From NCBI GenBank assembly GCA_024275415.1, contig JAJRZD010000098.1:1-13532 (forward strand): a DNA stretch of 13,532 bases, written 5' to 3'. The DNA comes from an archaeon (lineage in GTDB: Archaea > Asgardarchaeota > Thorarchaeia > Thorarchaeales > Thorarchaeaceae). The notes under the pieces were generated by a model. The model had not been told where the DNA came from. It saw only the letters and a program-made list of their open reading frames with translations, and searched no databases. Made by a program: the position numbers and the translations under genes. Below, piece by piece: positions 1-12,834 of this stretch (positions within the stretch are counted from its first letter, which is position 1; each line of letters begins with the position of its first letter).

Positions 1-1219
1 CTCCGAGCAGCCTCACACGGTTGCCCAGCTTGTACAGAGGCTCGGCGAAAATAGTAGGAACCGGAGGTTTCGGAACAGCCTGCCTAGAGGCGTCGTGATT
101 CCCAGGGATTGTGATGACAGTGACACGTTTGTTCAGACGGCGGAGTTTCTTAGCTAGAAAGGCATACTGCTCAATGACATCGGGGATTTGTAGGTTCTTC
201 TCCTGATCCGGATAGACACCAATCCCGTCCACAAGATCGCCTGCGATGAAGAGATACTCTGTCTTCCGGACAAGATCCTTGTCGGTTCCATCTACATCCT
301 TGCCATTGAGCCAGTCAATAAAAGTGTCAAACTCGTCCTCCAGAAATTCCTCGCTCCCACAATGAATGTCGGAAATGAAGGCAGCATATACCTCCCTCTT
401 TGCACGTCCCAAGGTTCTTGCGGTCGGGATATCTGGAAAGAGAATATTGTTTGCAATCATGCGACCATCTTGGTCAATATAACCGGAGATGCAGATTGGC
501 TCATCAAGCAGGATTGAGTTTCCTTTCTCAAGAAGATGCGCGCTCTCAAACCCTTCTCTACCTACAGGGATTATACAAGTTATGGAATCCTCTTCGTCTT
601 CGAGTTCGATGATGATGTTTCGGGAACGCGACACGTTTTTGTCAGCGACAATGCCAAAGACCGTCTGCATTATACGCCGTTGTGATTTGCCACCTTCCTT
701 CCGAACCAATCGTGCTCTCTTTGCGTCATATCGTAATGCCTTTGCGTCCTTTGGAGTCAATGCGGTTTGCGTGTCAATGCGAGACATGTAGATTCTCTTT
801 ATCCGTTCAAAGCGATCCTTGAACAGAGCATGAAAGTCCTCAATGGTTCCTGCTGAACCGACCTTGTCGAACGCGGGATTCTTTAGGATATGAATTCTCT
901 CTTCTGGTGCGGGCTCAGTTGTTCTGGTTGGCTCCATCTGTACATGGTCGGGCTCCAGAGAGGCAGACTTGGGTGGTTTGATAACGATAGTAGTATTGGA
1001 TCCGTGGTCGATGAGTCTGACTAGAAACTCCCGTGAGATAATAGAAGGTATATCGGATTTAGAGTGCCCTCTCACAATCATTTGTACGATATCTTCAGGA
1101 TTTTTGAAACTTGCGATATAGTCCAGCGCATCTGGAGATACCTGATATCCTGACGAGATAAGTGTGTGCAGGATAGTTCGTCTGGTTGTCTGAGTCAAGT
1201 GGTCACCAAGATTAGACAT
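1..1219 (-). CDS. polB: DNA polymerase II (PolD) small subunit DP1, 3' end truncated by the window edge
   Basis: Manual minus-strand translation (absent from the ORF track): MSNLGDHLTQTTRRTILHTLISSGYQVSPDALDY...; phosphoesterase motifs AFISDIHCGSEEF, LFIAGDLVDGIGVYPDQ and TIPGNHDASRQAVPKP. Start is ATG at 1219 or TTG at 1198 (GGTGA upstream of the TTG). Confidence 0.95.
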   Translation of the reverse strand, partial: MSNLGDHLTQTTRRTILHTLISSGYQVSPDALDYIASFKNPEDIVQMIVRGHSKSDIPSIISREFLVRLIDHGSNTTIVIKPPKSASLEPDHVQMEPTRTTEPAPEERIHILKNPAFDKVGSAGTIEDFHALFKDRFERIKRIYMSRIDTQTALTPKDAKALRYDAKRARLVRKEGGKSQRRIMQTVFGIVADKNVSRSRNIIIELEDEEDSITCIIPVGREGFESAHLLEKGNSILLDEPICISGYIDQDGRMIANNILFPDIPTARTLGRAKREVYAAFISDIHCGSEEFLEDEFDTFIDWLNGKDVDGTDKDLVRKTEYLFIAGDLVDGIGVYPDQEKNLQIPDVIEQYAFLAKKLRRLNKRVTVITIPGNHDASRQAVPKPPVPTIFAEPLYKLGNRVRLLG

Positions 1220-4390: not shown

Positions 4391-4455
4391 ACTGGAACGG
4401 CTTCAGAGAGAACGATGCGTCAGTGCTCCTGTCTGCTGATGGAGCGACATGTGGC

Positions 4456-4797
4456 CTAGAATGTCAGGACAGAATATCCCTTCTCTATGAATGACAAGAG
4501 GTCACTATGTCCGCTCAGTTCTCCCTTCAGTGGGACACCGAGATTATCAGCAGCCTGTGCTGCATCGAACATGGATGTGCATGCCTTGCAAGCGTGATCT
4601 ATTATGCCCCGCTCTATTGCCTTGTTAAATGGAGGTATGTGTATCGTACCATCGGCAATGCCAATCAGTATCTTGGGCGATGCACACTCCAAGACGACAG
4701 CCACCTCGTGCCCCTTCTCATGGAAATTATTCGCATTCAATAGCAGATGGAAGAGCTGCATCTTGTTATCGTCAGTCGCAAGAAATAATTGCTTCAT
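4456..4797 (-). CDS. DsrE/DsrF-like family protein (113 aa)
   Basis: MKQLFLATDD...FHLLLNANNFHEKGHEVAVVLE...ACKACTSMFDA...LSGHSDLLSFIEKGYSVLTF shows the DsrE-fold pattern with a CxxC. A strong SD precedes ATG 4797. Confidence 0.8.
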   Translation of the reverse strand: MKQLFLATDDNKMQLFHLLLNANNFHEKGHEVAVVLECASPKILIGIADGTIHIPPFNKAIERGIIDHACKACTSMFDAAQAADNLGVPLKGELSGHSDLLSFIEKGYSVLTF

Positions 4798-4800
4798 GGG

Positions 4801-4809
4801 ACCTCCTCC
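4801..4809 (-). promoter_or_regulatory. Shine-Dalgarno site of the DsrE-like gene
   Basis: Minus strand reads GGAGGAGGT-CCC-ATG. Confidence 0.7.
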
Positions 4810-4997
4810 TGTTACATTTGGACTCCTACGATAACTACCTTTCGAGTGTGTCAGCACATTCGACGTAACCACATACTCCTCCCAGCCCTCCAGCGAAAAA
4901 TCGTTCGACGATTCCCAAAGGGGCAAAACCATCATATCCATTCACCAGTCCACCCACATCGGCTCTTTGCGGAGGTTGCCAAGCCAGGTCAACGGCG

Positions 4998-5086
4998 CAG
5001 GGTTTAGGCCCCTGTTCAGTAGTGATTTGGGCGCTGGTATCCAGCACTCGCACGGATCGCGAGTTCGAATCTCGCCCTCCGCACCA
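4998..5086 (+). repeat. 89-bp direct repeat, copy 1 (attL; tRNA-Leu position 27 through CCA)
   Basis: Base-for-base identical to 7488-7576 (offset 2,490). Flanks differ immediately on both sides (gcg|...|ttca versus aaa|...|cctt). Confidence 0.97.
5027..5056 (+). other. Putative tRNA-Leu variable-region intron (relaxed BHB; boundaries uncertain by a few nt)
   Basis: The insertion folds as T-GGG-C-GCTGG-TAT-CCAGC-A-CTC-G. Helix AGTG/CACG has 3 of 4 pairs, with bulges AT|T and GA|T. Removal restores a 14-nt Leu-type V region TTCAGTAGTGATTC. Confidence 0.65.
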
Positions 5087-5266
5087 TTCACATCCTTCTA
5101 AGTGAAGCTATTAGATTCCTGATGTGTTATTGATTGACGAGTTATATCTTCCGCATCAGCCACGGATATCCTGAGTGTACGAGTACATATCCTCTTCGCA
5201 TAACAAGAAGGGGAGTGAACTCGACTGACCAGAAACAGGTCAGAAATTTAAAAGGATCAGCGAACA

Positions 5267-6943
5267 ATGGCACGTTCCAAGGGCGTAACGGTAGCGGTGA
5301 AGGTACCCATCAAGTGGGAGGTCATGACAGGTAGGACTCGGCAACGACTCAGACAGATTGTTGGGAGGGATACCAGAGTCGTCCGTGCGTACTTGGGGAT
5401 CATAGAACAGTATGAGGACGATCTGCTGACCGGAAAAGATAGGACAAGGCTGGATGAAGGTAGATTGGACAGGCTCACCATGACAGCACTTAAGGTGAAG
5501 GCAGGATGTGAGCGGAGAGTTACCGTCCCACATGACTTCAAGGCTCGCTTCCCAAGGGCCTCCCCAAATGAGATTGCCGAATGTCGAAAGACCGCTGTCG
5601 CACTCTATGAGAGTTACTTGAAGCTTAGAGCAAAGAAAGGTCGAGATGCTTCCCGTCCCAAGTCGGTCAATACATCAGGGAGGATACCTCGGTGGATTTA
5701 CGCCCAGCGATTCAAGCTTGTCGAGCGGAAAACTGTGGTCGCCCGATGGTGGGTCGATCTTAGGGACTCCTTGGATTCCTCATTGGAGGGAAGGGCAGTC
5801 CATGACAGGCTTAACATCCCGCTCAAGATATCCCCTTTTCATGAAGAACAAATTCAGAGGGGGAAAGTCAAGGCACTTCAAATCTTCACTGACAGGAGTG
5901 GGAAATGGTGGGCGACCTTCGCGGTTCGAATCCCAACTAATGGCATCCAAGAAAACGATCTACCCGTTGCAATCCTTGGGATTGACCTAGGAATACGCAA
6001 GGCTGTGTGTACTTCCCTTCTCACTCCAGAGAAGACACGGGAGAGTAGATTCTTTGTTCAGAGAGAGAAGGTCAGTCGTATCAGCAGATATGATGATTTG
6101 GTAGCGACATTGCAGCACGAAATGCATACCCGAAAGAACAAAGGTATTGCGTATGACCATGTTGCCAAGAAACTCCGAGCAATCAGATTCAAGCGTGAGA
6201 ATATCTCTCGCGAATATGATAGAGTGTTGGTGCGACAGCTCATCAACTATATCACAGACCTCTCTCAGAAATACACACTCTACATAGCCATTGGTCGTCT
6301 GAAGAACATTACAATGCGTGCGCGACGTGGAACCAACAAGGGAATAAGATTTCGGGCTATGGTCAATTCATGGTCCTTTGCTAGGATTACCCAGAGCCTG
6401 AAGCACGGGCTAGCCCAGATTGGATGGGTCGTGGACGGGAAAGAGCCTCGTTTCAGGGTGGTTCCAGAGGCGTGGACCTCCATCATCTGCTGGAAGTGTG
6501 GGATAAAGGGAAGAAGACCAATGCAGGACTACTTCCATTGTCCCTCCTGTGGACAGAAGACCAATGCAGACAGGAATGGAAGCGTCAACATCGCAGCACG
6601 CATGCTCACGCTCACAAAGTCATTGCACTCTGTGGGAGGACTAGGCCTGTGGGCTAGAGCTCTGGACAGGGCTCGACGTGCACGACCGAAAGCCCAGCGG
6701 AAATCGTCTTCCAAAGGGAAGTCCTTACTCCTCGCGAAGGGATCTGCATCGGAACCCGGGGAGTCCGCGGTAGCTCACTTTGCTCAGACGAGCCTCACCA
6801 GCTTCAGTGATGGGGTCGGTGAGAGTGAGGATGACCCTGCCGTGGGAAGAACTGTGGAAACCCTTGCTGTCGCCGGGAGTGATGCCCCGGCAATCGGACA
6901 GGAGGAGGAAGCCCGGTCCGGAGGAGGGATACCATCCCGATGA
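5267..6943 (+). CDS. tnpB: TnpB (IS200/IS605/IS607-type RNA-guided nuclease) with rearranged RuvC-II site
   Basis: RuvC-I ILGIDLG (D240); RuvC-II IAIGRLKNI (G343 where E is canonical); VVPEAWTS (E401); Zn finger CWKC...CPSC (C408/C411/C425/C428); RuvC-III NADRNGSVNIA (D435); low-complexity C-terminal tail of about 115 aa. Confidence 0.93.
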   Translation: MARSKGVTVAVKVPIKWEVMTGRTRQRLRQIVGRDTRVVRAYLGIIEQYEDDLLTGKDRTRLDEGRLDRLTMTALKVKAGCERRVTVPHDFKARFPRASPNEIAECRKTAVALYESYLKLRAKKGRDASRPKSVNTSGRIPRWIYAQRFKLVERKTVVARWWVDLRDSLDSSLEGRAVHDRLNIPLKISPFHEEQIQRGKVKALQIFTDRSGKWWATFAVRIPTNGIQENDLPVAILGIDLGIRKAVCTSLLTPEKTRESRFFVQREKVSRISRYDDLVATLQHEMHTRKNKGIAYDHVAKKLRAIRFKRENISREYDRVLVRQLINYITDLSQKYTLYIAIGRLKNITMRARRGTNKGIRFRAMVNSWSFARITQSLKHGLAQIGWVVDGKEPRFRVVPEAWTSIICWKCGIKGRRPMQDYFHCPSCGQKTNADRNGSVNIAARMLTLTKSLHSVGGLGLWARALDRARRARPKAQRKSSSKGKSLLLAKGSASEPGESAVAHFAQTSLTSFSDGVGESEDDPAVGRTVETLAVAGSDAPAIGQEEEARSGGGIPSR

Positions 6944-6945
6944 TG
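6600..6945 (+). ncRNA. Putative omegaRNA (reRNA) scaffold overlapping the 3' end of tnpB; boundaries approximate
   Basis: Dense hairpins in the non-domain tail: CTTCC/GGAAG, CTCACC/GGTGAG, GCCGGG/CCCGGC, CGGAC/GTCCG, GGGAT/ATCCC. omegaRNAs typically overlap tnpB 3' ends. Confidence 0.45.
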
Positions 6946-6960
6946 ACGGACAATGCCCTT

Positions 6961-7078
6961 GCTGACCTTGGGACTCTCTGGGTCTTGGGGAGTGGTGACA
7001 CTGGCAGGGGAGGGGCGGAACACAGAGGTTTCTTGCAGTTGTGGTTCACTCACCAGTCACTGCTAGAGATAGGTCAGC
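6961..7078 (+). other. 118-nt rod-like hairpin immediately downstream of tnpB
   Basis: Nested helices: 6961-6968/7071-7078 (GCTGACCT/AGGTCAGC, perfect), 6975-6979/7065-7069, 6990-6998/7050-7058 (8 of 9 pairs), 7004-7011/7029-7036 (with G-U pairs). Confidence 0.55.
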
Positions 7079-7487
7079 TAAACCTTGCGCCGTTAATTCA
7101 AAGGGCGATAAGGGTGCATAGGGGGGATGGTAGTTAGTAGTTTGGGATTGGTTTGAATATTGTTCAAGTATTCTTTAATCTCACCCAACCATTTTGAGTG
7201 ATGGGAGGACGGGTCTTCTAGACATTGCCTTTTCGATAAAATGTCTTGGAATGGGCATGATCGCCAACCCTTCCGGAAGTATTTGAATCATTAGCACCTA
7301 CTGATAGCTAAATCGCAAAATCAGAGATTCTTGATATGTTTGGTGCAGACAAAACAAAGAATGTGAAGGAAGATCTCTATCGTCCTGAAAAAGAGGGGGC
7401 GAATGATTTCTTTGGCTAGTCTGACATAAATGCTCTTGAAAGGCAACTAAATGTAAAATAGAGTCAAAATGGCAAATCGCATAGAAA

Positions 7488-7576
7488 CAGGGTTTAGGCC
7501 CCTGTTCAGTAGTGATTTGGGCGCTGGTATCCAGCACTCGCACGGATCGCGAGTTCGAATCTCGCCCTCCGCACCA
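7488..7576 (+). repeat. 89-bp direct repeat, copy 2 (attR): 5'-truncated tRNA-Leu fragment retaining anticodon arm, intron, T arm and CCA
   Basis: Identical to 4998-5086. It lacks the 5' acceptor strand and D arm (preceded by ...atcgcatagaaa). Confidence 0.97.
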
Positions 7577-7680
7577 CCTTTTGTCCTGTCGTGTTCAAAG
7601 TGAGCAGGTTCTCACGCCTCGTGTGATGGGATTTTCTGTCCTCATCGATTGTGGGCCGGACAATGACAAGAAATGCGGGA

Positions 7681-7821
7681 CTAGTCCTTGGTTTCCCAGT
7701 TATGGGTACACCGAGGGCATCGCCAGCTCTTCTTGTACTTCCCGGGCTCGATGAGTTCCTTTCGCACAACGGCTGTTTCAGTATAGCCACAACGGGGACA
7801 AATCTCAGATGACATTGACAT
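7681..7821 (-). CDS. Small zinc-ribbon protein (46 aa), not in the ORF track
   Basis: Manual translation: MSMSSEICPRCGYTETAVVRKELIEPGKYKKSWRCPRCTHNWETKD*, with two CPRC knuckles. Co-oriented with the upstream membrane-protein gene. Confidence 0.65.
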   Translation of the reverse strand: MSMSSEICPRCGYTETAVVRKELIEPGKYKKSWRCPRCTHNWETKD

Positions 7822-7872
7822 AGAACACCGTCCTTTGGGTCACAGGAAGCCAATTTCTAGTTTACTCTGACA

Positions 7873-8703
7873 TCATATCGGCAATGGTTTGACGCGCCTC
7901 CTGCGTGAGAGGGGCAGCTCTATCATGCCGCGTAGGTGGAGCGCGCCCAACACTGCCACCAAGCTAGCTGTGCTCAGGAGGGACAAACCGATGATTAGGT
8001 CAATGAGGATGATGGGCTGAGCGGTGCCTTGTGTGTTGATATGGATGTACCCCTCCTCGCTGTAATAGTCCAGAGTGGAGCTAGAGAGGGTAGCGTTACG
8101 TGGATAGACCTCATTGGAATATTTCTCTAGCTCGATGGTAAGGATCTTATCGGAATAGTCGATCACAGAGCCGTCAATCAGGCTGATTCGAAGTCCATCA
8201 AGGACTATGTAGCCCCCGAACATGGGTAGGAACTGCGAGCGCGCATCGTCATCGATCAGCATGTATCCACCGAACAGCCGCCCATCAACCACCGTGCCTG
8301 AAGCAGAGAATATCGGTGAGGAGTCTAGGAGGTCATGGTAATACCCGGCGCTGTCGCGCCATTTCGGATAGAAAGCGATCTCCTTGAAGGTCATGTTCTG
8401 CACAAGGGGACGCCCGAGCATCGTCTTTCCAAAGTAGATTCCCATCGAGACCGTGAAGTAGTGCTCGTTCAGGGTAGGCTGGTGATGCTGATAGAGGAAG
8501 TTGATCCTGAAGGAGCTACGAAGGAGTACTACCTCTGTCCCGTCCTCAAGCTCGAATGCCGCACGATAGGTGAAATAGCCGACCTCGATGAACGCACGGG
8601 GGGCTCCGCCCCCAGGCTCCTGGGCGGCCACAGGCTGTGCGTACATTGCAGGGGTGATAGCGATCATGAGGAGGATGCCGATTAGCAGTGTGGGCGTTCT
8701 CAT
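7873..8703 (-). CDS. Hypothetical exported protein with signal peptide and C-terminal membrane anchor
   Basis: MRTPTLLIGILLMIAITPAMYAQPVAA is signal-like. The C-terminus has a hydrophobic stretch (IILIDLIIGLSLLSTASLVAVLGALHL) followed by a basic tail RRRRVK. ATG 8703 is preferred over 8742. Confidence 0.75.
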   Translation of the reverse strand: MRTPTLLIGILLMIAITPAMYAQPVAAQEPGGGAPRAFIEVGYFTYRAAFELEDGTEVVLLRSSFRINFLYQHHQPTLNEHYFTVSMGIYFGKTMLGRPLVQNMTFKEIAFYPKWRDSAGYYHDLLDSSPIFSASGTVVDGRLFGGYMLIDDDARSQFLPMFGGYIVLDGLRISLIDGSVIDYSDKILTIELEKYSNEVYPRNATLSSSTLDYYSEEGYIHINTQGTAQPIILIDLIIGLSLLSTASLVAVLGALHLRGMIELPLSRRRRVKPLPI

Positions 8704-8888
8704 CGTCCTTTCGACCTTACCTAGTATGGTACTAGTTCCCACTTATCCCTAAAATACAGTTGCGTTACCAGCAATTTCAAGTACGTGTAGTCAACGCTGT
8801 AAGATTGCTAACGAAAGGTTCATATCGCCACTGTCATTTGCGTTCATACTGGTCTTTGGAAGACCAACGCAGGGGACGTGGCCTAGTC

Positions 8889-8918
8889 TGCGTCTAGGAA
8901 TCTCCTAGGAGCCTAGAA
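8889..8918 (+). other. tRNA-Trp intron 1 (30 nt, D loop, about 17/17a)
   Basis: BHB: helix CTAG/CTAG, bulges TC|T and AA|C, inner stem GC-G-TCTAGG/CCTAGG-A-GC. Confidence 0.85.
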
Positions 8919-10970: not shown

Positions 10971-11864
10971 TCATGCTGTGAGGATTACTGGGCCTTTCTC
11001 GGATACGAATACAGTATGTTCTGTTTGAGAAACAGGCCGTCCCTTCTTAGATACCTGCACGGGAAAAGCACGAATCGCCTTGTGCTTTAGCAGATTTCTG
11101 AGTTCCTTGACTAGATCCACATCTTTTGATGTCGTACCAATCCAGCGCGCGGCAAACGGGAGAGATCCATACTTCTTGCGAAGATGCAGTCTGAGCTTCT
11201 CGGTAGTACCTTCAAGCGGAGAGTCATTTCCAGTGTTTGCAAATATGTAGATTAGGTCAGAATTAATGACTGTGCCAGCGCCTGATGTGGCAAATGGCTC
11301 AATAGCATAGACTTCGCCGACTTGCACCTTTCCAGTCCCTCGTGTTTTCACATTGGGTACATGCTTTCCGGCATGCAATCTCCAACGTTCGATGTTATGA
11401 CCGGTGAGGTTCCTGATAGGACGGAGACCATATGCCTTTATCACGGATTCTATTGTTTTGCCGATTTCTCCAAGACTGGTGCCGGGCACAAATGCCTCAA
11501 TAGCCTCATGCAATGCATCATAGGTGGCATACACGAATCCCTCAAGTGTACCATCCATGTCGAGTGTTCGCGCTATATCGACGATATAGCCATCAATCTG
11601 CACACCGAGATCTACCTTCACCAGTCCTGACTCGGGAATTAAACTAGTGTCCCCCACAGGGGATGTGTAATGTGCAGCGATATGATCCACGGAAACGTTG
11701 CAGGGGAATGCAGGGCGTCCTCCATATTCGATAATCTTTCGCTCTGCCAGGGTGCAAATAGTGATGATTTTCGTCTTCGGAGTAATCTCGGACTCGACCT
11801 CGCTCATCACCCGAGCAGCGATCTTTCCTGCTTTGACCAATTGAGGGAGTGGGCTTTGTGTCAT
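10971..11864 (-). CDS. map: Methionine aminopeptidase type II, paralog B
   Basis: FPCNVS..AAHYT, KVDLGVQIDGYIVD, TGHNI..LHAG, AIEPFAT, SQTEHTV: all five metal ligands (D, D, H, E, E) present. Start MTQSPL at 11864 is preferred because the listed 11933 overlaps the upstream paralog. Confidence 0.93.
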   Translation of the reverse strand: MTQSPLPQLVKAGKIAARVMSEVESEITPKTKIITICTLAERKIIEYGGRPAFPCNVSVDHIAAHYTSPVGDTSLIPESGLVKVDLGVQIDGYIVDIARTLDMDGTLEGFVYATYDALHEAIEAFVPGTSLGEIGKTIESVIKAYGLRPIRNLTGHNIERWRLHAGKHVPNVKTRGTGKVQVGEVYAIEPFATSGAGTVINSDLIYIFANTGNDSPLEGTTEKLRLHLRKKYGSLPFAARWIGTTSKDVDLVKELRNLLKHKAIRAFPVQVSKKGRPVSQTEHTVFVSEKGPVILTA

Positions 11865-11922
11865 GATGAATCCGGTCAACCGGAGGACATTCAGCTTCTT
11901 AATAGATTCCATATGCGCTGGT

Positions 11923-12834
11923 TCATTCGACATTTCTACGTGTTGATACTATGCATCCCTCATGCCCGACAAAGATGCTATGTTCAAACTGGGACACCAA
12001 ACCGTTCTTGCCTTCGATGAGAACGGGATACCCCCGTACAGCTCCTACCCGCTCAAGATTCTTGATTGCTGTGTCTATATCTGCAGTGCCCTTCAGGTGA
12101 TGGAGCCAGCGTGATGCCCAAGGGAGAGTCCCAAACCGCTGACGGGCGATGTTCCTGACCTGCATGGCGGATCTGTCGAGCTTCTTCTTGTTCTTCAAGT
12201 CGTTAGAATAGATATATGAAACCATACTATGCCTGATAGTGCCATTCCCATTAGTGGCAAATGGCTCCACAGCATACATCTCGCCCACGAGAAACTCAGG
12301 GCTCTTGGCCGCTGAGATATTCGGCACGCTTTTGCCTGCATGAAGAATCCAAGGCTTCAGCTGATGCCCTGATAATTGGTGTACTGGACGCAGTCCGCTT
12401 CTTTTAATCGTCCTCTCTATCACTGCTCCAACCTCCCCAAGCCGAACCCCTGGTCGGATTGTGTCTATGGCTGCATTAAGGGCTTCTTTCGCAGCAAAGA
12501 CATACTTCTCGTATGAACCATCGAGGTCAACGGTGACAGCCGTGTCAGAGAGATAGCCGTTCACATGAGCACCCAAATCAACCTTCACAAGGCCCTTGTC
12601 AGGAAGCACTCTTTTGTCGGCAGGAGGACTCGTATAGTGGGCTGCTTCTTCATTGATCGACACATTACATGGGAACGCTATCCCTGAAGCGCCGTATTCG
12701 AGTATCTTCTTTTCGGCAAGCATACAGACACGGAGAACCTTGATTCCAGGTCTCACATCCTTCACGATATCACTCATCACTCGGGCTGCAATCCTTCCTG
12801 CCAGCAAGAAGTCTGGGTGAGGTTTCGTTGACAT
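11923..12834 (-). CDS. map: Methionine aminopeptidase type II, paralog A
   Basis: FPCNVS..AAHYT, KVDLGAHVNGYLSD, SGHQL..LHAG, AVEPFAT, SQFEHSI: all five metal ligands present. Confidence 0.95.
   Translation of the reverse strand: MSTKPHPDFLLAGRIAARVMSDIVKDVRPGIKVLRVCMLAEKKILEYGASGIAFPCNVSINEEAAHYTSPPADKRVLPDKGLVKVDLGAHVNGYLSDTAVTVDLDGSYEKYVFAAKEALNAAIDTIRPGVRLGEVGAVIERTIKRSGLRPVHQLSGHQLKPWILHAGKSVPNISAAKSPEFLVGEMYAVEPFATNGNGTIRHSMVSYIYSNDLKNKKKLDRSAMQVRNIARQRFGTLPWASRWLHHLKGTADIDTAIKNLERVGAVRGYPVLIEGKNGLVSQFEHSIFVGHEGCIVSTRRNVE

What the first reader, a model, noticed from the sequence alone, without database searches (positions are those of the whole stretch)
5267..6943. Fanzor-like rearranged RuvC active site in an archaeal TnpB
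Seen: D240 and D435 are intact, the canonical RuvC-II Glu is replaced by Gly (IAIG343RL, nt 6293-6295), and a Glu sits 58 residues later in VVPE401AWTS just before the Zn finger (nt 6467-6469), where typical TnpBs read VxPxxTS. Established: eukaryotic Fanzors and their closest prokaryotic TnpB relatives share this Gly/Pro substitution with a compensating downstream Glu. Inference: this is likely an active nuclease of a rearranged clade and not a dead TldR-like protein. If the host is an Asgard archaeon, it bears on the origin of Fanzors. Convergent rearrangement is also possible.
Basis: partly seen in the sequence, partly recalled or inferred. Interest (0 to 1): 0.8.

Follow-up and report, generated by a model that had tools for sequence, protein, structure and literature searches.

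The report
Asgard TnpB with relocated catalytic glutamate
This is an intact RNA-guided DNA-cutting enzyme gene (TnpB) of a Thorarchaeota (Asgard) genome whose middle catalytic glutamate sits in an alternative place first described in 2023; it is a new copy of a known family, and nothing found here ties it specifically to the origin of eukaryotic Fanzors.

Summary
The ORF at 5267-6943 (558 aa) has D240, G343 in place of the RuvC-II Glu, E401 six residues before the zinc finger, and D435. E401 and D435 are invariant, and D240 and G343 are at least 90% conserved, across 59 relatives.

The protein belongs to an Asgard-wide branch of the published "E-alt / TnpB2 / RIIr" TnpBs and is probably an active nuclease. 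A confident model (pLDDT 90) aligns with mimivirus Fanzor2 at an offset that puts E401 on E467 and D435 on D501.

Its "tail" (aa 446-558) is the reading frame running through a roughly 440-nt structured omega RNA. That RNA shows 54 base pairs with compensatory changes.

This copy is single and non-autonomous. It lies in a 2.49-kb island bounded by an 89-nt tRNA-Leu repeat. The 17 nt after the right end are antisense to that tRNA.

The Fanzor-origin idea is not supported:
- RuvC-I reads DLG, not DPG.
- Cas12f and TnpB are at least as close as Fanzor2 by profile and by fold.
- The same rearrangement occurs in Thermoplasma and haloarchaea.

This scan has already reported the same family on other DNA.

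The parts
4968..5086 (+). tRNA-Leu (anticodon UAG) gene, with a 29-nt insertion (about 5028-5056) compared with the orthologue in G013
   Evidence: Rfam tRNA, 45.9 bits against a gathering score of 29. ARAGORN finds nothing. Comparison with the G013 tRNA.
4998..5086 (+). Copy 1 of an 89-nt perfect direct repeat (3' part of tRNA-Leu); left border of the 2.49-kb island
   Evidence: the repeat finder family D1, 100% identity, spacing 2490
5167..5266 (+). Conserved left-end region: GAGTGAAC box 5213-5220, hairpin CTGAC/GTCAG 5225-5243, TATA-like TTTAAAA 5247-5253
   Evidence: Alignment of 13 upstream regions. Similarity to the G013 copy starts at 5167.
5267..6943 (+). tnpB ORF, 558 aa. RuvC-I D240 (5984-5986), G343 at the canonical RuvC-II site (6293-6295), relocated Glu E401 (6467-6469), zinc finger C408-C428 (6488-6550), RuvC-III D435 (6569-6571)
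6620..7077 (+). Omega RNA scaffold. It overlaps codons 452-558 and runs 134 nt past the stop codon.
   Evidence: RNAalifold on 27 copies gives 92 pairs, 54 with compensatory changes. Solo copies start at 6616-6638. Codon-position identities are flat in aa 446-558.
7028..7077 (+). Terminal hairpin of the right end: arms 7028-7038 and 7060-7070, with GTTCACTCAC (7044-7053) in the loop. Conservation ends at AGGTCAG, position 7077.
   Evidence: Alignments. The same motif is reported for Asgard TnpB loci in PMC10691335.
7078..7094 (+). Putative guide: 17 nt directly after the right end, reverse complement of tRNA-Leu 4991-5007 (16 of 17)
   Evidence: Inverted repeat I4. The junction is shared only with G013 among 41 genomes.
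7095..7487 (.). Rest of the island. No ORF, no similarity to the G013 island and no second omega RNA copy.
7488..7576 (+). Copy 2 of the 89-nt repeat (displaced 3' part of tRNA-Leu); right border of the island

Best explanation
The ORF encodes an intact TnpB-type RNA-guided DNA endonuclease. It belongs to the branch in which the RuvC-II glutamate has moved from the end of strand beta4 (now Gly343) to just after strand beta5 (Glu401, six residues before the zinc finger). The inferred active site is D240/E401/D435.

The protein should bind a roughly 440-nt omega RNA encoded by the last 320 nt of its own gene plus 134 nt downstream. The 3' flank of that RNA would serve as the guide.

The family is a multi-copy mobile element of Thorarchaeota. 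In its autonomous form it carries a divergently transcribed 1,540-1,800-aa partner gene. It also leaves many protein-less omega RNA units.

The copy in this window has no partner gene and is the only one in its genome. It sits in a 2.49-kb island at the 3' end of tRNA-Leu.

Shown: the residues, their conservation, the fold, the RNA covariation, the copy numbers and the island borders. Inferred: catalysis by E401, guide use, and how the island got there.
For: - Residues verified and conserved across 35 and 59 relatives. The canonical and alternative Glu are mutually exclusive.
- Family assignment: Pfam PF07282 at 1e-10, NCBIfam guided_TnpB at 80.7 bits.
- AF2 model of residues 1-455: pLDDT 90.3, pTM 0.83. 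Strands 234-241, 337-344 and 396-400 and helix 434-449 put D240, G343, E401 and D435 at the strand ends or helix start expected for an RNase H fold.
- VIA alignment to the ApmFanzor2 cryo-EM chain: Z 20.1, model 1..452 onto chain 108..518. That offset of 66 maps E401 to E467 and D435 to D501. These are the catalytic residues named in PMC11832414. E467A abolishes activity, and the archaeal E-alt TvTnpB cleaves DNA (PMC10530073).
- Purifying selection between this copy and G013 for aa 1-445: pN 0.17, pS 0.82.
- Omega RNA: 54 compensatory pairs. Codon-position identity is 0.69/0.80/0.41 for aa 1-445 against 0.70/0.72/0.64 for the tail.
- Mobility: 0 to 34 matches per genome in the same family, and many solo right ends.
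- Island.
Against: - No biochemical data exist for this family.
- I could not read coordinates from the model, so the E401-D240-D435 distances were not measured. The residue mapping onto Fanzor2 rests on the range ends and on equal spacing.
- The NCBIfam TnpB score is below the curated cut-off (80.7 against 100).
- The guide position is inferred only from where conservation ends. The variable loop next to GTTCACTCAC is an alternative site.
- This genome has no partner gene, so this copy may no longer move.
Confidence: 0.75

Rival explanations
1. The protein is a nuclease-dead, TldR-like RNA-guided DNA binder. Loss of the RuvC-II Glu would have inactivated it, and E401 would be incidental.
For: Gly replaces the canonical Glu. 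The gene is single-copy and has no transposase in this genome.
Against: E401 is invariant in 59 relatives and is exclusive with the canonical Glu. RuvC-III and the zinc finger are intact, unlike described dead derivatives. E401 maps onto the catalytic E467 of Fanzor2. E-alt TnpBs have been shown to be active.
Confidence: 0.07
2. This Asgard clade is the specific sister or source of eukaryotic Fanzors, so the shared rearrangement is inherited and not parallel.
For: It has the same E-x6-CxxC position and the same 34-residue E-to-D spacing as ApmFanzor2. The clade spans Thor-, Heimdall-, Odin- and Hodarchaeota. In PMC10711439 all E-alt proteins form one clade.
Against: RuvC-I reads DLG/DFG, not DPG. 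Profile scores are Cas12f 124 bits and TnpB 114 bits against Fanzor2 63 bits, and SpuFz1 is not listed. Fold Z scores are Cas12f 22-23 and ISDra2 TnpB 21 against Fanzor2 20. There is no IS607 TnpA. The same change occurs in haloarchaea and Thermoplasma, and PMC10691335 reports several independent RuvC-II rearrangements.
Confidence: 0.05
3. This particular copy is a long-resident, host-kept gene. Its guide, aimed at tRNA-Leu, would serve island maintenance or another host function instead of transposition.
For: The same arrangement (tRNA-Leu, tnpB, tRNA fragment) lies next to DsrE and glmM in another genus. TnpB divergence (dN 0.20) is similar to that of neighbouring glmM (0.25). The 17-nt flank antisense to tRNA-Leu is kept 16 of 17 between the two genomes, while the other island flanks cannot be aligned. 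There is no partner gene here.
Against: The junction is found in only 2 of 41 genomes, and none of the six other genomes of the same genus has it. The G013 guide has 5 mismatches in 21 to its own tRNA. The two islands differ in size, in content and in the extent of the repeat, which fits independent site-specific integration equally well.
Confidence: 0.12

Closest known systems
RuvC-II-rearranged TnpBs: 'E-alt' (PMC10711439), 'TnpB2' such as Thermoplasma volcanium TvTnpB (PMC10530073), and RIIr branches (PMC10691335)
   Same: Gly at the canonical RuvC-II site, a conserved Glu six residues before the first CxxC, a NADxN RuvC-III motif, a D-hydrophobic-G RuvC-I motif, and an omega RNA at the right end.
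   Different: The protein is larger (558 aa), with about 110 residues of read-through tail. The omega RNA is about 440 nt. The clade is restricted to Asgard archaea. The partner gene is not a Y1 or serine TnpA. Activity has not been tested.
aCas1-associated Asgard TnpB groups Cas1H-Asgard-1/-2 (Altae-Tran et al. 2023, PMC10691335)
   Same: Asgard host. The conserved GTTCACTCA motif lies downstream of tnpB, here at 7044-7052. Relatives form two-gene elements flanked by repeats.
   Different: This window has no partner gene. I could not show that the giant partner ORF of relatives is Cas1-like. I also saw no hypervariable stretch upstream of the motif.
Fanzor2 (ApmFz2, PDB 9B0L) and cyanobacterial pro-Fanzors
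   Same: The catalytic Glu is relocated to the same sequence position, the Glu-to-Asp spacing is the same (34 residues), and the overall fold is similar (Z 20.1).
   Different: RuvC-I reads DLG, not DPG. There is no N-terminal NLS extension and no IS607 TnpA. The host is archaeal. Profile similarity is weaker than to Cas12f and TnpB.
Cas12f (AsCas12f, OsCas12f, SpCas12f1)
   Same: These are the best structural and profile matches (Z 22-23; E 7e-35). The compact WED-REC-RuvC-ZnF layout is the same.
   Different: Cas12f keeps the canonical RuvC-II Glu, works with CRISPR arrays and acts as a dimer. Here there is no array, and the guide RNA comes from the transposon end.

Membership tests
TnpB (OMEGA RNA-guided endonuclease) | WED-REC-RuvC-zinc finger fold | tested here: met
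   Pfam PF07282 at 1e-10. Model pLDDT 90. VIA Z 21.3 to ISDra2 TnpB and 22-23 to Cas12f. NCBIfam guided_TnpB scores 80.7 bits, below its cut-off of 100.
TnpB (OMEGA RNA-guided endonuclease) | Structured omega RNA overlapping the 3' end of the gene and the right end | tested here: met
   92 predicted pairs, 54 with compensatory changes, in 27 copies. Codon periodicity is lost in aa 446-558.
TnpB (OMEGA RNA-guided endonuclease) | Association with a Y1 (IS200/IS605) or serine (IS607) TnpA | tested here: not met
   No transposase ORF lies in the island. Relatives carry a giant ORF with no Pfam, NCBIfam or PADLOC family.
E-alt / TnpB2 / RIIr rearranged TnpB | Non-acidic residue at the canonical RuvC-II site plus a conserved Glu six residues before the first CxxC | tested here: met
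   G343 and E401-x6-C408. Conserved in 59 relatives. Exclusive with the canonical Glu.
E-alt / TnpB2 / RIIr rearranged TnpB | Alternative Glu completes the catalytic pocket, and cleavage depends on it | tested here: inconclusive
   The topology and the offset-66 mapping onto E467/D501 of 9B0L agree with this. Distances could not be measured and there is no assay.
Fanzor / pro-Fanzor | DPG motif in RuvC-I together with E-alt (PMC10711439) | tested here: not met
   RuvC-I reads GIDLGI here, and D-[LFM]-G in all relatives examined.
Fanzor / pro-Fanzor | Eukaryotic or giant-virus host, or a cyanobacterial IS607 context | tested here: not met
   Homologues are named Thor-, Heimdall-, Odin- and Hodarchaeota. 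No serine recombinase is adjacent.
Fanzor / pro-Fanzor | Phylogenetic placement inside or next to the Fanzor clade | not testable with these tools
   No Fanzor or pro-Fanzor sequences could be brought into a tree. Proxy measures do not favour it.
aCas1-TnpB loci of Asgard archaea (Cas1H-Asgard-1/-2) | Conserved GTTCACTCA motif downstream of tnpB in an Asgard genome | tested here: met
   GTTCACTCAC at 7044-7053, conserved in 27 copies. The motif is quoted from PMC10691335.
aCas1-TnpB loci of Asgard archaea (Cas1H-Asgard-1/-2) | Adjacent Cas1-homologue gene | tested here: inconclusive
   The window and its genome have none. The giant partner ORF of relatives shows no Cas1 signal: PF01867 search, hhalign against a Cas1 alignment with probability 0.9%. 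Only a weak PD-(D/E)xK lead was found.
TldR-like nuclease-dead TnpB derivatives | Loss of catalytic residues or truncation of RuvC-III or the zinc finger | tested here: not met
   D240, E401, D435 and all four Cys are present and conserved.

The most novel reading that the evidence does not exclude
The Asgard-wide E-alt TnpB clade, to which this gene belongs, could be the lineage from which eukaryotic Fanzors descend. That would mean vertical or early transfer at eukaryogenesis, in place of the proposed cyanobacterial pro-Fanzor route. The DPG motif would then be a later eukaryote-side change.
Probability: 0.05. Interest if true: 0.85.

Novelty: new member of a known kind. Interest (0 to 1): 0.3.

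Why it matters
This gene adds one more intact example to the published class of TnpB nucleases with a relocated catalytic glutamate. It also confirms that a whole clade of them is spread through Asgard archaea.

For tool builders, E-alt enzymes are of interest because the tested ones lack collateral cleavage.

For evolution, the result is mostly negative. The Asgard host alone does not link this protein to Fanzors.

Two local details are small but testable leads on how this element family chooses and keeps its sites: the island at tRNA-Leu, and a right-end flank antisense to that tRNA.

Tried and rejected
- My first idea, a single-copy domesticated gene, came from one copy in this genome and about 70% identical one-per-contig homologues. 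It was rejected for the family as a whole: relatives hold up to 34 matches per genome plus solo right ends.
- The first AF2 run, with 35 close homologues, gave pLDDT 60 and was not used for fold inference.
- Getting Fanzor or pro-Fanzor sequences for a tree failed. A profile search returned only Thorarchaeota. A viral-contig scan gave 77 canonical TnpBs out of 79 and no DPG plus E-alt protein. A plasmid tblastn gave a canonical Gloeobacter TnpB and one haloarchaeal E-alt TnpB.
- Cas1 homology of the giant partner ORF was not detected in Pfam, NCBIfam or PADLOC, in the Atlas for residues 560-1696, or by hhalign.
- A degenerate second omega RNA copy in 7095-7487 was not found by nhmmer.
- An integrase in the G013 island was not found: the 313-aa ORF has no Pfam hit.
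- CRISPR arrays at the two short GTTCACTCAC-like matches in this genome were not found.
- For sequencing runs holding this stretch, none was listed and no RNA holder was listed.
- The paper PMC7307682 is not held.

Full report
**Observation.** The ORF at 5267-6943 on the + strand translates to 558 residues.
- D240 (5984-5986).
- G343 (6293-6295), inside YIAIGRLKN.
- E401 (6467-6469), inside VVPEAWTS.
- D435 (6569-6571).
- A CxxC...CxxC finger at 408-428.

E401 lies 58 residues after G343 and seven positions before C408. Pfam finds the Cas12f1-like TNB domain at 1e-10. NCBIfam's guided_TnpB model scores 80.7 bits, below its cut-off of 100.

**The pattern is conserved, not accidental.**
- In 35 homologues of 65-72% identity, D240, G343, E401, D435 and all four Cys are invariant.
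- In 59 sequences reaching 24% identity, E401 and D435 remain invariant, and D240 and G343 are at least 90% conserved.
- Of the 50 distant representatives alignable at both motifs, 49 have a non-acidic residue at the canonical site and Glu at the alternative one. The single exception has the canonical Glu and Ala at the alternative position.
- In 79 ordinary NADxN-type TnpBs from viral contigs, that position is Pro in 69, Ala in 8 and Glu in 2.
- In solved Cas12f structures it aligns with Pro.

**Host and spread.**
- Close homologues are labelled Candidatus Thorarchaeota.
- More distant members of the same branch come from Heimdallarchaeota, Odinarchaeia and Hodarchaeota.
- The window's own genome (3.5 Mb, 93% complete) has one copy.
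- Other genomes of the same family have 0 to 34 matches, patchy even within the genus, plus many hits to residues 445-558 only.
- The family is therefore mobile, and my first guess of a domesticated single-copy gene was wrong for the family as a whole.

**Structure.** A model built on the close homologues alone was poor (pLDDT 60). A second model of residues 1-455, built on the diverse alignment, reached pLDDT 90.3 and pTM 0.83.
- It has the RNase H order of elements: strand 234-241 ending at D240, strand 337-344 ending at G343, strand 396-400 followed at once by E401, and helix 434-449 starting at D435.
- Foldseek and VIA-align rank Cas12f first (TM 0.61-0.66; Z 22-23). ISDra2 TnpB follows (Z 21.3), then mimivirus Fanzor2 9B0L (Z 20.1, rmsd 4.0, 375 residues aligned).
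- The Fanzor2 alignment runs from model 1..452 onto chain 108..518. That terminal offset of 66 maps E401 to E467 and D435 to D501.
- These are the catalytic residues seen by cryo-EM (PMC11832414). E467A abolishes cleavage (PMC10530073).
- I could not extract coordinates, so inter-residue distances remain unmeasured.

**The tail is an RNA gene.**
- Pairwise identity by codon position is 0.69/0.80/0.41 for residues 1-445 but 0.70/0.72/0.64 for residues 446-558.
- Between this copy and its G013 counterpart, pS falls from 0.82 in the body to 0.30 in the tail.
- An alignment of 27 right-end regions, 15 of them protein-less solo units, gives 92 consensus pairs, 54 with compensatory changes.
- The scaffold spans about 6620-7025. 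It ends in a hairpin (arms 7028-7038 and 7060-7070) whose loop holds GTTCACTCAC (7044-7053).
- Conservation stops at AGGTCAG, position 7077.
- Altae-Tran et al. report the same GTTCACTCA motif downstream of Asgard aCas1-associated tnpB genes (PMC10691335).
- Solo units begin at the equivalent of 6616-6638. By eye, most of them have TATA-like boxes just upstream.

**Element anatomy.**
- Upstream, about 100 nt are conserved among copies. They hold a GAGTGAAC box (the inverse of the right-end motif), a CTGAC/GTCAG hairpin and a TATA-like box.
- In at least eight of the relatives' loci, a divergently transcribed ORF lies upstream. It is 1,538-1,806 aa long in the four loci read in full.
- That ORF has no Pfam, NCBIfam or PADLOC family. 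It has a D...ExK-like motif by eye and weak PD-(D/E)xK leads from the Atlas.
- It shows no detectable Cas1 similarity: PF01867 does not find it, and hhalign gives probability 0.9%.
- It is absent from this genome.

**The island.**
- An 89-nt perfect direct repeat (4998-5086 and 7488-7576) is the 3' part of a tRNA-Leu(UAG) gene at 4968-5086.
- A genome of another genus (G013) has the same layout, tRNA-Leu then tnpB then tRNA fragment, beside the same DsrE and glmM genes. Its island is 3.9 kb and the whole unit is inverted.
- A same-genus genome without this TnpB has an intact tRNA-Leu next to the membrane-protein gene.
- The 17 nt after the right end (7078-7094) are the reverse complement of tRNA-Leu 4991-5007, matching 16 of 17.
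- G013 keeps the same flank. This junction occurs in only these two of 41 genomes.
- TnpB divergence between the two copies (dN 0.20) is close to that of neighbouring glmM (0.25).
- I cannot tell whether this reflects long residence or separate site-specific integrations.
- tRNA genes lie within about 1.5 kb of five of 13 full-length copies.

**Comparison with what is known.**
- The rearrangement is published. It appears as "E-alt" with D-hydrophobic-G, set against the DPG-bearing Fanzor/pro-Fanzor clade (PMC10711439). It also appears as "TnpB2", including the biochemically active Thermoplasma TvTnpB (PMC10530073), and as several RIIr branches, some found only in archaea (PMC10691335).
- This protein has DLG, so it fails the Fanzor fingerprint.
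- The family profile scores Cas12f at 124 bits, a TnpB at 114 bits, Fanzor2 at 63 bits and ISDra2 TnpB at 37 bits.
- A haloarchaeal plasmid TnpB shows the same Gly plus E-alt pattern.
- I could not place Fanzor sequences in a tree.

**Verdict.**
- This is a new member of a known kind. Earlier reports of this scan reached the same reading for sister copies in other genomes, and another first-reader note describes this same island.

Noticed in passing
window 4968-5086: The tRNA-Leu(UAG) gene carries a 29-nt insertion between the variable arm and the T arm, compared with the G013 orthologue. ARAGORN misses the gene altogether. This could be a non-canonical intron.
   Followed up: partly
L021:7464-12554 (+), L022:1776-7196 (-), L023:8353-12969 (+), L025:727-5397 (-): A giant ORF of 1,538-1,806 aa is transcribed divergently from tnpB in relatives. 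It has no Pfam, NCBIfam or PADLOC family, a PD-(D/E)xK-like D...ExK motif near residue 400, and no detectable Cas1 similarity in my tests.
   Followed up: partly
L041-L060 (relatives G003-G024): Protein-less omega RNA units of about 450 nt are dispersed in related genomes. Many have a TATA-like box about 25-30 nt upstream. A G009 subgroup shares a 200-nt left extension, which looks MITE-like.
   Followed up: partly
L027:1491-1526 (G000:C112:2350-2385): A lone 37-nt copy of the right-end tip (GGAAC...GTTTCTTGCAGATGAGGTTCACTCAC) sits elsewhere in this genome, with no omega RNA or tnpB beside it.
   Followed up: partly
L002, L006, L009, L011, L014, L015, L049, L058, L060: tRNA genes or tRNA 3' fragments lie next to many copies of the element. 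In L009 and L014 they directly abut the right end. This suggests a preference for tRNA genes as targets.
   Followed up: partly
window 7339-7392: A weak C/D-box snoRNA-like match (snoR121, 24 bits, E 0.12, below the gathering score) lies inside the island.
   Followed up: no
window 10971-11933 and 11923-12834 (- strand): Two adjacent paralogous ORFs of 320 and 303 aa overlap by 11 nt. By eye they look like methionine aminopeptidases. This was not checked against a family library.
   Followed up: no
window 4400-8900 compared with L024 and G005:C7: The whole unit of tRNA-Leu, island and tRNA fragment is inverted relative to the flanking DsrE and membrane-protein genes, compared with G013 and with the empty site of G005. 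The breakpoints are unexplained.
   Followed up: partly
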